From the IMG/VR virus record IMGVR_UViG_2866816733_000004, positions 32,001-96,000 of that record: 64,000 bases of DNA. The stretch is one strand, 5' to 3'. Shown one piece after another: positions 34,963-38,416 of the stretch; positions within the stretch are counted from its first letter, which is position 1; each line of letters begins with the position of its first letter. The notes beneath the pieces were generated by a model. The model made no database searches. It was not told the DNA's origin and worked only from the letters and a program-made list of their open reading frames with translations. Origin of the DNA: a virus. Lineage: Duplodnaviria > Caudoviricetes. Made by a program: the position numbers and the translations under genes.

Positions 34963-36630
34963 TCATCGGCGGATGTAGCCGTTCACCACCATCGGCAGTG
35001 ACGCGTCCACGCCCGCCATGTTCAGCACGCCCTCGTCCCGCGGGTCACCGATTGAGTGTCCGTTCGCTGCCATCGCAGCGATCACCACCCGAGCGTCCCC
35101 GTTGACCGCGCGCCGGTACGAGGTGAGCGCCTGCGACGGATGCTGTCGGCCCGCCCACGTCTCGTTGTCAGTGAGTACCAAGATGCCGTCGACGTGGAGC
35201 TTCTCGCGCTGCGCCCACTGGAACGGCAGAGACAGGTCAGTCCCACCACCCGACGGAGACCACCGGCCAACCTCACGCAGGTTCGTGTGTGCCGTCACCC
35301 GGGAGGAATGGACGCTGGTGTCGACGTCGATGACGTGAACGTTGCCGCCCTCGATCCGGTTGAGGATCACCGCCATCGCGTTCGCGACCTCGTAGCAGGA
35401 CCCGAGCGGCACGCCACCCGAGCGCACACCGGCCCATGACATCGACCCGGACGAGTCCACGGCGATGAGCAGCCGATGGCCGGACGGCTCGATGTGGCCG
35501 AATGACAGCTCGTACGCCTCTTCCAGCGCGTCCACGATCGCGGGAACCGGCGACCAGGTCTGGAAGTCGGCGCGCGGGTTCGGCTGCGACCGCCCGGCCT
35601 GGTAGACACGCACCGCCAGGAACAGGTCCATCGGGTGGATCCGCGCCTTGGAGAGCGCGTCGGCGTTGGTGAGCCGCGCCGCAGCGAGGCGGGTCGCGTC
35701 ACTCATCGGCTTGAGCGTGCCGAGCCTGGTCATCCTGGCCAGGTTCCGGATGAGCGCGGTTATCCCGATCGTGTCGACGAGCTCATCCCACACACCCGCG
35801 TCGGTGAGCACGGCGTCGGGCAGGAACTCCCACGGCACGCCGCGGTCCTGGACCACGTCGATCGCGTCGACCGGGTTGGTGACGGCCTGCGCAGCGAGGA
35901 ACGCGTCAACGGCCGGCACCTGCGTGCGAACGTCAGCGTCGGCGACGTTCCCCGCGATCCACCCGAACAGCGCACGCCGCTCCGGAGTATCAGCCTTCGG
36001 GTGCGCGATCCGCAGCGCGTCCCGTAGCGCGAACGCCTCACCCGAAGACGTTTTACGCTGACGCGCCTTGCACACCCGCCACGCCACCTGGTCGACTTCA
36101 CCGTTCAGGAACCACGACCCGAGGGCGGTCCGCATCGCGCGGCCGATGACCGGGGCGGTACCGCCGCTGGTGGCCTTGCCGGCGAGGTTTTTCCAGTACC
36201 CGAAGTACGTTGCGAAGTGGTCGGTGGTCCGGGCGACCTGCGCAAGAGACACCTTGACGGCCTGCTTAGTGTCGGCGTCCCCGCGGGCTGCAGCCGCGGC
36301 GAGCGCGAACAGCGCGGGACGGTTCTTCGGCGCCCGCGGTGGACGCGCCGTCGAGATTTCCGTTGCCGTCTTTACGACACGGACACCGTCGGCCTGAACG
36401 GCATCGAACACGACCCCGGCATTGTCGGCAGTGAGCTGGTCCTCGCCGACGTAGTAGGTACCGCCCGTTGTGCCGAGGATCAAGAAGTCCTCGAGCTTGG
36501 TCCACAGGTCCTTGGCGAATCCGTACCCGCCGGCGTTGTTGCGGACCTGCTCGGCCTCACGGCCAGGAATCGGCTGGTTCTGCGGCGTCTGGATGGTGGA
36601 CACGGACGCGAGAGGATCACGGGCCATCAT
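34963..36630 (-). CDS. rsr: Ro60/Rsr TROVE-domain RNA-binding protein with C-terminal vWA domain
   Basis: QVRNNAGGYGF, FLILGTTGGTYY, ALIRNLARMT, ARIHPM, MIDAS DSSGSM, GGGTD, LTDNETW; GGAGG RBS before ATG at 36630. Confidence 0.95.
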   Translation of the reverse strand: MMARDPLASVSTIQTPQNQPIPGREAEQVRNNAGGYGFAKDLWTKLEDFLILGTTGGTYYVGEDQLTADNAGVVFDAVQADGVRVVKTATEISTARPPRAPKNRPALFALAAAAARGDADTKQAVKVSLAQVARTTDHFATYFGYWKNLAGKATSGGTAPVIGRAMRTALGSWFLNGEVDQVAWRVCKARQRKTSSGEAFALRDALRIAHPKADTPERRALFGWIAGNVADADVRTQVPAVDAFLAAQAVTNPVDAIDVVQDRGVPWEFLPDAVLTDAGVWDELVDTIGITALIRNLARMTRLGTLKPMSDATRLAAARLTNADALSKARIHPMDLFLAVRVYQAGRSQPNPRADFQTWSPVPAIVDALEEAYELSFGHIEPSGHRLLIAVDSSGSMSWAGVRSGGVPLGSCYEVANAMAVILNRIEGGNVHVIDVDTSVHSSRVTAHTNLREVGRWSPSGGGTDLSLPFQWAQREKLHVDGILVLTDNETWAGRQHPSQALTSYRRAVNGDARVVIAAMAANGHSIGDPRDEGVLNMAGVDASLPMVVNGYIRR

Positions 36631-36644
36631 TGGCCTCCGAGGTG

Positions 36645-36672
36645 TTCGACCCGCCACGAAGGCGGATGTGGG
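36645..36672 (-). promoter_or_regulatory. circularly permuted Ro-binding helix in the rsr leader
   Basis: Minus strand CCACAUCCGCC-UUCGU-GGCGGGUCGAA ending about 6 nt before the GGAGG RBS; same two strands as the Y RNA terminal stems in swapped order. Confidence 0.68.
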
Positions 36673-36692: not shown

Positions 36693-36838
36693 GGGGAGGG
36701 CGGATGTGGTGGCGCCTGCCGGGTTTTTAGACCAATGCGCTACCTGGCTGCGCTACCGGCCGACCAGGTCGGCCGAGCAGGATTTGAACCTGCGACCTTT
36801 GGTTCCCGATAACCGACGGGCTTCGACCCGCCCTCCCC
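36693..36838 (-). ncRNA. yrlA: YrlA-type Y RNA with permuted tRNA-like domain
   Basis: Terminal stem GGGGAGGGCGG/CCGCCCTCCCC; GTCGAAG...GGTTATC; T-arm GCAGG-TTCAAAT-CCTGC precedes acceptor-like stem and D-arm GCGC-AGCCAGGTA-GCGC; adjacent to rsr. Confidence 0.9.
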
Positions 36839-36866
36839 ATGACGTCCAGCTTGGCCCGTAGGGCCG

Positions 36867-36947
36867 GGTGTCTGCACGGATGTGGGAACGACCGCCGGAG
36901 GGCTCTATGCGAAAGATAACCGACGGTCTTCGACCCGTGCAGGCACC
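36867..36947 (-). ncRNA. second, shorter Y RNA (YrlB-like, no tRNA domain)
   Basis: Terminal stem GGTG-C-CTGCACGG/CCGTGCAG-A-CACC; GTCGAAGACCGTCGGTTATC...CCGGCGGTC...CCACAT motifs shared with YrlA. Confidence 0.82.
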
Positions 36948-37015
36948 GAGCCTGACGCGCTGATCCGAAGGTAACGCGCCGGATCACAGTTCGCATCTTG
37001 ATATTGGTCGGGGGA

Positions 37016-37291
37016 CTACCTCTGGGCCGCCGCCCGCAATTCCTTCTTCGCGTCCAGCACGTCATCGACCGTCGCCCACCACCGGTGGCGCTGCAGCCGT
37101 TCTGTGAGGTCCCAGCGTTCCGCGCGGGCGCGCTTCAGCTCGGTGTGCTGCTCGTCGGTGACTGTGGCCGTGCCCGCTATGACGTCGAGGGCCGGCGGGT
37201 GCGACGCCGTGATCTCCTGGCAGCGGGCGTCCGCGGCGTACCAGTCGCGCTGGAGTTGGAGCAGGTCAGGCGGGAAGTCGTAGGTGGCCAC
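37016..37291 (-). CDS. small hypothetical protein
   Basis: VATYDFPPDLLQLQRDW...HRWWATV...LRAAA. Confidence 0.65.
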   Translation of the reverse strand: MATYDFPPDLLQLQRDWYAADARCQEITASHPPALDVIAGTATVTDEQHTELKRARAERWDLTERLQRHRWWATVDDVLDAKKELRAAAQR

Positions 37292-37366: not shown

Positions 37367-38416
37367 CTAGAACTCGATGTCGTTCATCGGGTTGTTCCTC
37401 CACTGATCTACGGCTCGGATGTAGACGAGGAGCACGGGGGAGTTGGGGTTCCAGCGACCATGCTTAGCGATCTCAGAGATAGGGACGCCTGCTGCGTAAG
37501 CGGTCGAGGCTGAGCCTGCCCGGAGCCCGTGGGAGGTGTACTTCGCGGGAAGGTTGGCGAGGACGCCACGGCGGTGGACGATATCGCAGGCGGACTTGCC
37601 TGTGAGGCGTACGGCGACTTTGCCGGCACTGTTGGGCTCGCCTCCAATTCGCCCGTGGCGGTCGACGGGGCGGAACAGAGGACCGTCCACCAGGCCCCGC
37701 TCGGCGAGGCACTCCTTCCATCCGTTGACGGCTTCGACCGGGCACATGTCGGCGCGCTTGCTGCGGGGGATGGCGACCCTGATGCCGCTGGCTTCCTGGT
37801 CGGTCTTCGACCGCTTTACATAGACGCTGAGCCCCTCGGGGGTTTCGATGGCGTCGTCCTGGTCGAGGCCGACGAGTTCGGAGCGGCGCGCCATCATGTT
37901 GAAGCCGAGGAGTAGGAGTGCCCGATCGCGTACGCCCTGCAGGGTCCTCAGGTCGCAGGTCGCGATCATGGCACGCAGCGCGTCGGGCATGATCGGTGTC
38001 GCCTGCTTCTCTCGGTTGCCGTCCTCGGCCCACTGCCTCCGGTAGGTCTTGAGGGCTTTGAGAGGTTTCTCGCTATCAGGTTCGTCCTGGCAGCCAGCGT
38101 CTGTGTGCTTGGAGCGGATCGTGGAGATTGCCTGAGCAATGGTGTTGGGGGCGCTCTTGCCCCTGCACATGTGGTTGACGTACTCGGTGAGTGTCTGCGC
38201 GGTGGCAGGGAGGTAGACGCGTCCTTCGTGCTCACACCACTCGCGGAAGTCCTTCCACGCCCGGTCGTATGCGATGCGGGTGTTCTCGGCGGTGGAGTTG
38301 ATGAGACGCTCAGCGGTGTCGGCGCTGATGGTGAAGTCGATGTCGCTGTACGCGACGGGCGGCGGCTCGGTAGGGCGAACGACGATGGGGGAGGAGGTGA
38401 CCTCTAGGTCGGACAC
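37367..38416 (-). CDS. Cre-like tyrosine recombinase/resolvase
   Basis: NTRIAYDRAWKDF.EWC (SAM-like), RDRALLLLGF...RRSELV, RSKTDQ, HGLRAG, HGRW, YIR. Confidence 0.92.
   Translation of the reverse strand: MSDLEVTSSPIVVRPTEPPPVAYSDIDFTISADTAERLINSTAENTRIAYDRAWKDFREWCEHEGRVYLPATAQTLTEYVNHMCRGKSAPNTIAQAISTIRSKHTDAGCQDEPDSEKPLKALKTYRRQWAEDGNREKQATPIMPDALRAMIATCDLRTLQGVRDRALLLLGFNMMARRSELVGLDQDDAIETPEGLSVYVKRSKTDQEASGIRVAIPRSKRADMCPVEAVNGWKECLAERGLVDGPLFRPVDRHGRIGGEPNSAGKVAVRLTGKSACDIVHRRGVLANLPAKYTSHGLRAGSASTAYAAGVPISEIAKHGRWNPNSPVLLVYIRAVDQWRNNPMNDIEF

What the first reader, a model, noticed from the sequence alone, without database searches (positions are those of the whole stretch)
36633..36672. 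Permuted Y-RNA mimic in the rsr leader: candidate Ro60 translational autoregulation
Seen: just before the GGAGG RBS the mRNA reads CCACAUCCGCC-UUCGU-GGCGGGUCGAA. These are the two strands of the Y RNA terminal helix (CCACAUCCGCC and GGCGGGUCGAA match YrlA exactly) in swapped order, closed by a loop where Y RNAs have free ends, and keeping the G-U, U-A, bulged C, G-C geometry. Known: Ro60 recognises a bulged-C helix in Y RNAs. Inference: free Rsr binds its own leader and blocks translation while Y RNAs titrate it, matching protein to RNA levels. I do not know of this having been described.
Basis: partly seen in the sequence, partly recalled or inferred. Interest (0 to 1): 0.86.

Follow-up and report, generated by a model that had tools for sequence, protein, structure and literature searches.

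The report
Y-RNA mimic hairpin before Ro60 gene
The messenger RNA for this actinomycete's Ro60 (Rsr) RNA-binding protein has, just before its ribosome-binding site, a small conserved hairpin that copies in swapped strand order the stem by which Ro60 grips its partner Y RNAs, so spare Ro60 probably shuts off its own synthesis, though nobody has tested this.

Summary
On the minus strand, CCACAUCCGCC (36671-36661), loop UUCGU, GGCGGGUCGAA (36655-36645) lies 6 nt before GGAGG and the rsr start. Both 11-mers are exact copies of the 3' and 5' strands of the terminal helix of the YrlA-type Y RNA 22 nt upstream.

It is not chance or a relic. The hairpin is present in 58 of 78 related Rsr loci (Actinomadura, Nonomuraea, Streptosporangium, Actinospica). 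The arm carrying the GNCGAA Rsr motif is nearly invariant, the loop is free, and the hairpin always lies 3-10 nt from the Shine-Dalgarno.

Where a lineage's Y RNAs use another helix (GGGUUGAA, GGGCCGA, GAGCCGGA), the leader hairpin uses the same one. A detector for this found 55/79 leaders against 2/1027 coding windows.

My best reading (about 0.6) is an Rsr-binding operator giving negative translational feedback, in competition with Y RNAs. Binding and repression are untested.

It has been lost repeatedly, and other Rsr subfamilies (Mycobacterium, Streptomyces types) lack it.

I found no paper describing it. This scan has noted the same idea before on phage and archaeal DNA (AI notes, unchecked).

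It is a new member of a known kind: autogenous control by target mimicry.

The parts
36968..36996 (-). Promoter-like pair ATGCGA (36996-36991), 17 nt, TACCTT (36973-36968), just upstream of the first Y RNA. It is the probable start of one Y RNA-Y RNA-rsr transcript.
   Evidence: I saw this by eye in the own sequence and in relatives L002-L005, which keep RTGCGN-N17/18-TANNTT at the same place. The sigma-70 consensus scan finds nothing here. Inferred, not tested.
36873..36942 (-). Small Y RNA (YrlB-like). Its terminal helix is GCACGGGUCGAA / CCACAUCCGUGC, and it has no tRNA-like module.
   Evidence: Sequence reading. It shares the GGGTCGAAGNCCNTCGGTTA word with YrlA, and these are the only two copies in the whole genome.
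36693..36838 (-). YrlA-type Y RNA with a 17-bp terminal helix (GGGGAGGGCGGGUCGAA / CCACAUCCGCCCUCCCC) and T-arm-like and D-arm-like hairpins.
   Evidence: Rfam RF02553 at 39.1 bits, E 6.9e-7, below the gathering score of 69. Fold -81 kcal/mol, z -3.6.
36645..36671 (-). Leader hairpin, a permuted copy of the Y RNA Rsr-binding helix. The 5' arm 36671-36661 equals the Y 3' strand. The loop is 36660-36656. The 3' arm 36655-36645 equals the Y 5' strand and carries GUCGAA (the GNCGAA motif) and the bulged C at 36648.
   Evidence: The covariance model R1 has one strong hit in the window, here, at 56 bits, E 3e-11 (next best 16.8 bits, E 0.11). There is a single pattern match in the 10.2-Mb genome. 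It is conserved in 58/78 related loci.
36634..36638 (-). Shine-Dalgarno GGAGG, 6 nt after the hairpin's 3' arm.
   Evidence: In relatives the distance from GUCGA to the SD is 3-10 nt, mode 4.
36625..36630 (-). Two in-frame ATG codons. The second (36627-36625) is the likely start.
   Evidence: Relatives start at the codon aligned with the second ATG (MARDPL). It lies 6 nt from the SD, against 3 nt for the first ATG.
34963..36630 (-). rsr, the Ro60 orthologue (TROVE plus vWA), 554-555 aa.
   Evidence: Pfam PF05731 and PF25045. PDB 2NVO E 4e-70 and 1YVP E 4e-64.

Best explanation
The 27-nt hairpin in the rsr leader is a minimal Rsr-binding site. It presents the same bulged-C helix, with the GNCGAA motif, that Rsr recognises in the Y RNAs transcribed just upstream, but it is closed by a loop where Y RNAs have their free ends. 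It ends 6 nt from the Shine-Dalgarno and about 17 nt from the start codon, so it lies inside the region a 30S subunit must occupy. A 60-kDa Rsr ring bound there would hinder initiation. The hairpin has only 8 pairs, against a 17-bp terminal helix plus a second helix in YrlA. Y RNAs should therefore win Rsr first, and the leader would be occupied only when Rsr exceeds its Y RNAs. That is negative feedback matching protein to partner RNA. Shown here: the mimicry, its position, its conservation, and its co-variation with the Y RNAs. Inferred: binding, repression, and competition.
For: (1) Both 11-nt arms match YrlA exactly. Each word occurs only twice in the window, both times in this locus.

(2) The hairpin is present in 58 of 78 related Rsr loci across Thermomonosporaceae, Streptosporangiaceae and Actinospica, spread over the whole Rsr tree.

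(3) The conservation pattern fits a protein-binding RNA. The arm equivalent to the Ro-contacted Y 5' strand is almost invariant (GGCGGGUCGA). The other arm changes only C<->U opposite G. The loop is 2-7 nt (mostly 4-5) of any sequence, and the flanks are free. The U-G wobbles (58/59 and 27/59 rows) pair only in the sense-strand RNA, so this is not a DNA operator.

(4) Chen et al. 2014 (PMC4201824) name GNCGAA as the likely Rsr recognition motif and report that Ro60 mainly contacts that strand.

(5) The hairpin is anchored to the RBS, not to the Y RNA. It lies 3-10 nt from the SD and 13-23 nt from the start. Its distance from the preceding Y RNA 3' strand ranges from 16 to 67 nt.

(6) The leader follows lineage-specific Y helices: GGGUUGAA Y RNAs with GGGUUGAG leaders (L132, L135), GGGCCGR Y RNAs with CAUGCCCGG...CCGGGCCGAG leaders (L096, L122), and GAGCCGGA (L144). 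A detector requiring the bulged geometry and at least 7/8 identity to the locus's own Y motif hits 55/79 and 8/78 leaders, against 2/1027 and 3/1014 coding windows and 0 shuffles.

(7) A phage Ro60 binds a minimal stem-bulge-stem CGAA hairpin with KD about 17 nM (PMC12135203).

(8) No helix sequestering the SD is conserved, so any control needs a bound factor.
Against: No binding, toeprint, reporter or transcript data exist, and none could be produced here. The element has been lost at least 5 and probably about 10 times in the clade, so it is dispensable. It was not found in the other Rsr subfamilies sampled (Mycobacterium-like and Streptomyces-like loci), nor in Gordonia phage Cashline or Mycobacterium phage LinStu. 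True compensatory changes within the main clade are almost absent (1 pair, 1 cell), and that alignment was picked by a pattern for the hairpin, so its 99% pairing is partly by construction. Identity to the neighbouring Y RNAs could in part reflect duplication or gene conversion between nearby repeats rather than a shared ligand. The sign of the effect (repression or stabilisation) cannot be read from sequence.
Confidence: 0.6

Rival explanations
1. Rsr does bind the hairpin, but for another purpose. It might protect the 5' end of the processed rsr mRNA and so stabilise it (positive feedback). It might mark the processing boundary between the last Y RNA and the mRNA. Or it might capture newly made Rsr in cis.
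For: Y RNAs and rsr lie too close for a separate promoter (4-40 nt between the Y RNA end and the hairpin). In M. smegmatis the Y RNAs come from one precursor upstream of rsr (PMC4201824), so after processing the hairpin may sit at the very 5' end of the mRNA. Y RNAs themselves need Rsr for stable accumulation (PMC4201824). All the mimicry and co-variation evidence fits this reading as well.
Against: A 5' stabiliser need not keep a fixed 3-10 nt distance from the SD. In some phage loci the motif lies between the SD and the AUG, or the SD lies inside the arm (L140, L157, L162), and binding there can hardly help initiation.
Confidence: 0.2
2. The hairpin works without Rsr, as a generic structural element. 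It could be an attenuator or terminator between the abundant Y RNAs and the mRNA, or a barrier to ribonucleases. It resembles the Y helix only because it arose from a Y RNA.
For: It is a G+C-rich hairpin of about -11 kcal/mol directly after a set of highly expressed small RNAs. Actinobacterial terminators often lack U runs (my own knowledge).
Against: There is no U run and no terminator call on this strand. A generic hairpin would tolerate compensatory changes along the stem, yet the GGGUCGA arm is invariant and includes unpaired positions (the bulged C and the trailing A/AA). The hairpin tracks each lineage's own Y motif, including the bulged base C->U. Its position is tied to the RBS, not to the end of the Y RNA.
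Confidence: 0.1
3. It is a non-functional relic of rearrangements in a tandem Y RNA array: a leftover 3' strand next to a leftover 5' strand.
For: Related loci carry 2-4 Y RNAs in tandem, in which a 3' strand is naturally followed by the next 5' strand. The element is lost often, and partial remnants exist (L003, L016, L046).
Against: It is kept in 58/78 loci whose Rsr proteins are only 57-86% identical, while the loop and flanks have diverged freely. A relic would not keep both arms, their complementarity and the RBS spacing over that distance.
Confidence: 0.05

Closest known systems
Autogenous translational operators by target mimicry: E. coli thrS (ThrRS binds a tRNA-Thr anticodon-arm mimic just upstream of the SD) and ribosomal-protein leaders (S8, L1, S15, L20)
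   Same: An RNA-binding protein's own leader carries a small copy of its main RNA target at the ribosome-binding site. Free protein is expected to compete with the 30S subunit, and the main target titrates it. (These systems are cited from my own knowledge.)
   Different: The protein here is Ro60/Rsr and the target is a Y RNA helix. The copy is circularly permuted, with a loop where the Y RNA has its ends. Binding and repression are not shown here.
Bacterial Y RNAs (YrlA/YrlB, D. radiodurans Yrn1/Yrn2; Rfam RF02553; PMC4201824)
   Same: The same bulged helix and GNCGAA motif, the same strand and the same transcript neighbourhood upstream of rsr. The sequence is identical over 11+11 nt to this locus's YrlA.
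   Different: The hairpin has no free 5'/3' ends forming the helix, no internal loop, and no tRNA-like or other effector module. It is 27 nt instead of 70-146 nt, and it abuts an SD. It does not match the Rfam model.
Thermus phage phiLo Ro60 with Yrl1/Yrl2 and a minimal Yrl2 mimic (PMC12135203)
   Same: Short CGAA-bearing stem-bulge-stem hairpins encoded upstream of a Ro60 gene. A minimal hairpin binds that Ro60 at about 17 nM.
   Different: That paper treats them as Y-like partner RNAs and does not raise autoregulation (the word does not occur in it). It is a different lineage, and the sequences were not compared here.
Archaeal L7Ae binding a k-turn in its own 5' UTR
   Same: A small-RNP core protein whose mRNA leader carries the motif it binds in its partner RNAs. 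(Cited from my own knowledge and from an earlier scan note.)
   Different: A different protein fold, a different RNA motif and a different domain of life.

Membership tests
Autogenous translational operator by target mimicry | The element lies in the regulated gene's own leader, at or next to the ribosome-binding site | tested here: met
   The hairpin ends 6 nt before GGAGG. In relatives it lies 3-10 nt from the SD and 13-23 nt from the start.
Autogenous translational operator by target mimicry | The element resembles the protein's primary RNA target in sequence and structure | tested here: met
   11+11 nt are identical to the YrlA helix strands. Position profiles match those of 160 Y RNA strands from relatives. 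The leader follows lineage-specific Y variants.
Autogenous translational operator by target mimicry | Conserved among relatives beyond what the flanks show | tested here: met
   Present in 58/78 loci. The arms are about 98% identical against 59% mean column identity, and the loop is free.
Autogenous translational operator by target mimicry | The gene's product binds the element | not testable with these tools
   No protein-RNA binding tool was available. There is only indirect support from PMC4201824 and PMC12135203.
Autogenous translational operator by target mimicry | Binding lowers translation and is relieved by the primary target | not testable with these tools
   This needs toeprinting and reporter assays. 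No RNA run was listed for this DNA.
Y RNA (YrlA, Rfam RF02553) | A helix formed by the RNA's own 5' and 3' ends, enclosing an internal loop or effector module | tested here: not met
   The strand order is swapped, the helix is closed by a 5-nt loop, and nothing is enclosed.
Y RNA (YrlA, Rfam RF02553) | Match to the family covariance model | tested here: not met
   The Rfam E-value search of 36400-37400 hits only 36709-36819, the upstream YrlA, and not the hairpin.
Intrinsic transcription terminator | A G+C-rich hairpin followed by a U run | tested here: not met
   The hairpin is followed by CACCUCGGAGG. There is no terminator call on the minus strand.

The most novel reading that the evidence does not exclude
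Setting their own level through a minimal Y-helix operator at the RBS is a general habit of Ro60-family proteins in bacteria and phages (and, by earlier scan notes, archaea). The operator, the Y RNAs and the protein's recognition surface co-evolve. The natural variants then form a ready-made specificity code for Ro60-RNA recognition (bulged C or U; U-A or C-G next to the bulge), and the roughly 25-nt hairpin is the smallest natural Ro60 ligand.
Probability: 0.4. Interest if true: 0.75.

Novelty: new member of a known kind. Interest (0 to 1): 0.66.

Why it matters
How cells keep Ro60 matched to its Y RNAs is not known. Ro60 without a Y RNA is thought to have its RNA-binding surface ungated. A conserved self-binding site at the RBS would give a simple answer, and it would give a 27-nt natural ligand with natural variants for dissecting Ro60-RNA recognition. 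It would also add the Ro60/Y RNA particle to the RNPs that control their protein component by target mimicry. The prediction can be tested directly with standard assays in culturable actinomycetes or in a heterologous host.

Tried and rejected
(1) A 66-nt fold paired the loop and 5' arm with the SD. This was a truncation artefact. Longer contexts and the whole precursor form the hairpin, and RNAalifold finds no conserved SD-sequestering helix.

(2) Rfam gave no family for the hairpin.

(3) A loose pattern over 401 genomes of the order gave as many matches as its reversed control and was uninformative.

(4) Model R1 over 150 genomes of the class gave only one weak hit outside the own genome, inside a coding region (L090). 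I judged it chance.

(5) 29 TROVE loci from other actinobacterial families gave no R1 hit. Reading their leaders found one lineage with a variant mimic (L096) and otherwise different leader motifs.

(6) A loose generic detector had too many control hits. I tightened it by requiring a match to the locus's own Y motif.

(7) Gordonia phage Cashline and Mycobacterium phage LinStu carry Y RNAs but no leader mimic.

(8) Sequencing runs: none was listed, and no RNA holder was listed.

(9) Neighbouring ORFs gave no Pfam hits beyond an integrase, a methyltransferase and an HTH protein.

(10) I did not use complex prediction, because it takes proteins and small ligands only.

(11) Five literature searches found no report of Ro60/Rsr autoregulation.

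Full report
What is there. The window's minus strand carries a compact Ro60 locus. The gene at 36630-34963 encodes a 555-aa protein with TROVE and Ro60-type vWA domains. It aligns end to end with D. radiodurans Rsr (2NVO, E 4e-70) and with vertebrate Ro60. Two Y RNAs lie upstream on the same strand. The first is small, about 36942-36873, with helix GCACGGGUCGAA / CCACAUCCGUGC. The second is a 146-nt YrlA-type RNA at 36838-36693, with a 17-bp terminal helix and T-like and D-like arms. It scores 39 bits (E 7e-7) against Rfam RF02553, below the gathering score, and folds with z -3.6. The word GGGTCGAAGNCCNTCGGTTA occurs only at these two places in the 10.2-Mb genome. Best relatives place the organism in Actinomadura.

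The observation. Between YrlA and the start codon the RNA reads CCACAUCCGCC-UUCGU-GGCGGGUCGAA, then CACCUC, GGAGG, CCA, AUGAUG. Each 11-mer occurs exactly twice in the 64-kb window. The copies are the leader arm and the corresponding YrlA helix strand, but in the opposite order. Chance expectation is 0.12-0.16 per word. The hairpin reproduces the Y helix: G-C pairs, then U-G, A-U, a bulged C, and C-G. Alone it is worth -10.5 to -11.8 kcal/mol. Its core pairs have probability about 0.9 in an 81-nt leader, and it forms in the MFE fold of the whole 361-nt precursor next to both Y RNA helices. A first fold of a 66-nt piece paired the loop with the SD instead; that did not survive longer contexts.

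Is it kept by selection? I fetched 79 related rsr loci from named genomes. The same hairpin stands just before the SD in 58 of the 78 that could be placed on a tree. The genera include Actinomadura, Spirillospora, Nonomuraea, Streptosporangium, Sphaerisporangium, Microtetraspora, Sinosporangium and Actinospica, and the proteins are 57-86% identical to the window's.
- In the alignment the 3' arm GGCGGGUCGA is nearly invariant.
- The 5' arm changes only C<->U opposite G.
- The loop is 2-7 nt (mostly 4-5) of any sequence.
- The flanks are free: mean column identity is 59%, against about 98% in the arms.
- RNAalifold predicts this hairpin on its own and nothing else.

Classical covariation is nearly absent (one compensatory cell). 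The rows were chosen by a pattern for the hairpin, so the 99% pairing figure is partly by construction. The two U-G wobbles pair only in the sense-strand RNA, which argues against a DNA operator. A covariance model built from the alignment finds one strong hit in the window (56 bits, E 3e-11; next best 16.8 bits, E 0.11). It finds at most one hit per related locus, and that hit is at the leader in every locus but L069, where it lies about 950 nt upstream (described under the other Ro60 genes below). On a quick ML tree of Rsr the hairpin is spread over the whole clade and needs about 10 changes, at least 5 of them forced by well-supported branches. That means repeated loss: the Herbidospora clade, an Actinomadura side clade, a Nonomuraea sub-clade, Spongiactinospora and single species. 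Half-deleted remnants are visible (L003, L016, L046).

Is it tied to the ribosome-binding site? The distance from GUCGA to the SD is 3-10 nt (mode 4) and to the start codon 13-23 nt (mode 16-18). The distance from the preceding Y RNA's 3' strand ranges from 16 to 67 nt. The hairpin is therefore anchored to the RBS and not to the end of the Y RNA. It has no U run and no terminator call.

Is it really a copy of the Rsr site? Position profiles of the leader arms and of 160 Y RNA strands from the same loci agree, down to a shared C/U polymorphism in CA(C/U)AUCC. Chen et al. 2014 identify GNCGAA near the Y RNA 5' end as the likely Rsr recognition motif. They report that Ro60 mainly contacts that strand and that Rsr protects those bases in D. 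radiodurans Yrn1 (PMC4201824). The leader's invariant arm is exactly that strand, and the tolerant arm is its partner.

The strongest evidence is co-variation between leader and Y RNAs across lineages.
- In a sister clade found in IMG/VR contigs (L131, L132, L135; 62% identical Rsr), all Y RNAs carry GGGUUGAA, with a bulged U instead of C. The leader hairpins carry GGGUUGAG or GUGUUGAA, with a compensatory CCGGC/GCCGG top.
- In another actinobacterial family (L096, L122), Y RNAs use GGGCCGR / CAYGCCC, that is U-A replaced by C-G next to the bulge. The leader reads CAUGCCCGG-loop-CCGGGCCGA, abutting the SD. In L123 only a shortened version remains.
- L144 shows the same for GAGCCGGA.

I wrote a detector that requires three things: the bulged-pyrimidine hairpin geometry, a position within about 35 nt of the start, and at least 7/8 identity to one of the locus's own Y 5'-strand motifs. 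It hits 55 of 79 leaders in the main set, against 2 of 1027 coding windows, 0 reversed leaders and 0 shuffles. In viral contigs it hits 8 of 78 leaders, against 3 of 1014 coding windows, 1 reversed and 0 shuffles. A looser version without the own-Y condition had too many control hits and was dropped.

How it most likely works. Rsr, once made in excess of its Y RNAs, binds the leader hairpin. The hairpin lies within the stretch that a 30S subunit covers, so initiation is hindered. Y RNAs have much longer helices and should outcompete the 8-pair hairpin, so that repression reports the Rsr:Y RNA ratio. This is the logic of the thrS operator and of ribosomal-protein leaders (my own knowledge). A phage Ro60 binds a minimal stem-bulge-stem CGAA hairpin at about 17 nM (PMC12135203), so a hairpin this small can be a ligand. 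No conserved helix hides the SD, so a bound factor is needed for control. Binding, repression and competition are all inferred. I put the full mechanism at about 0.6, and the narrower claim that this is a selected mimic of the Rsr site at about 0.9. The rivals are three. Rsr may bind for stabilisation or processing of the mRNA (0.2). The hairpin may be an Rsr-independent structure (0.1), which is disfavoured by invariant unpaired bases and by tracking of the bulged base. It may be a relic (0.05), which is disfavoured by its conservation.

Limits and breadth. The element is not general to all Ro60 genes.
- 29 TROVE loci from other actinobacterial families gave no model hit.
- Mycobacterium-like loci instead keep a GCCC...GGGC clamp around the SD, and Streptomyces-like loci keep GAAUUC-GGGGG-AAUUC.
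- Gordonia phage Cashline and Mycobacterium phage LinStu have Y RNAs but no mimic.
- In some phage contigs the motif lies between the SD and the AUG, or the SD lies inside the arm (L140, L157, L162).
- In L069 the hairpin and the first 33 rsr codons are followed by an inserted GIY-YIG-like ORF and a second rsr copy.

Known or new. Five full-text searches found no report of Ro60/Rsr autoregulation or of a Y-helix copy in an rsr leader. Neither the main bacterial Y RNA paper nor the phiLo paper mentions it. This scan's own notes record the same idea on phage and archaeal DNA within the last days. Those are unchecked AI notes. They agree with my reading, and I used them only as a lead to look at viral contigs. 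The kind of mechanism, autogenous control by target mimicry, is textbook. Its use by Ro60, the permuted topology and the leader-Y RNA co-variation appear to be unreported. I file it as a new member of a known kind, with interest 0.66.

Noticed in passing
L069:525-1600 (Nonomuraea sp. NPDC049750): The hairpin, SD and first ~33 codons of rsr are fused in frame to a ~265-aa ORF that begins with a GIY-YIG-like motif. A second full-length rsr copy with an unrelated leader and an apparent frameshift follows. It looks like a homing-endonuclease-type cassette inserted into rsr.
   Followed up: partly
L109, L111, L112, L117-L119 and L099, L102, L104, L106, L116 (leaders): Other Rsr subfamilies keep different leader motifs. 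The Streptomyces-like loci share GAAUUC-GGGGG-AAUUC around the SD. The Mycobacterium-like loci share CGCCCGGAAGGAGGGCA, a GCCC/GGGC clamp around the SD. These may be separate RBS-control hairpins.
   Followed up: no
window 36968-36996 (-): A promoter-like pair, ATGCGA-N17-TACCTT, lies just upstream of the first Y RNA. It is kept as RTGCGN-N17/18-TANNTT in relatives L002-L005 and is not a sigma-70 consensus. It overlaps the inverted repeat TGATCCG...CGGATCA.
   Followed up: no
window 36625-36630 (-): There are two in-frame ATG codons. Relatives start at the second (MARDPL), which is also the one at a normal distance (6 nt) from the SD.
   Followed up: partly
window 37367-38416 (-), and loci L013, L130, L134: A tyrosine integrase gene lies just upstream of the Y RNAs. 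rsr is patchy in the genus (4 of 36 other genomes). One homologue is on a plasmid (L013), and 66-80% identical copies lie on IMG/VR contigs. The whole Y RNA-rsr cassette is probably carried by a mobile element or prophage.
   Followed up: partly
L035:1340-1503 (Nonomuraea sp. NPDC050547): The last Y RNA has no 3' strand of its own. The only CACAUCCGCC after its 5' strand is the hairpin's 5' arm, so Y RNA helix and leader hairpin would be mutually exclusive there.
   Followed up: no
L013-L085, 600 nt upstream of rsr: Many Nonomuraea and Streptosporangium loci carry three or four Y RNAs in tandem, about 115-170 nt apart, before the hairpin.
   Followed up: no
window 36727-37065 (-): A 112-aa ORF overlaps both Y RNAs and has no Pfam hit. 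It is very likely spurious and a trap for gene callers.
   Followed up: partly
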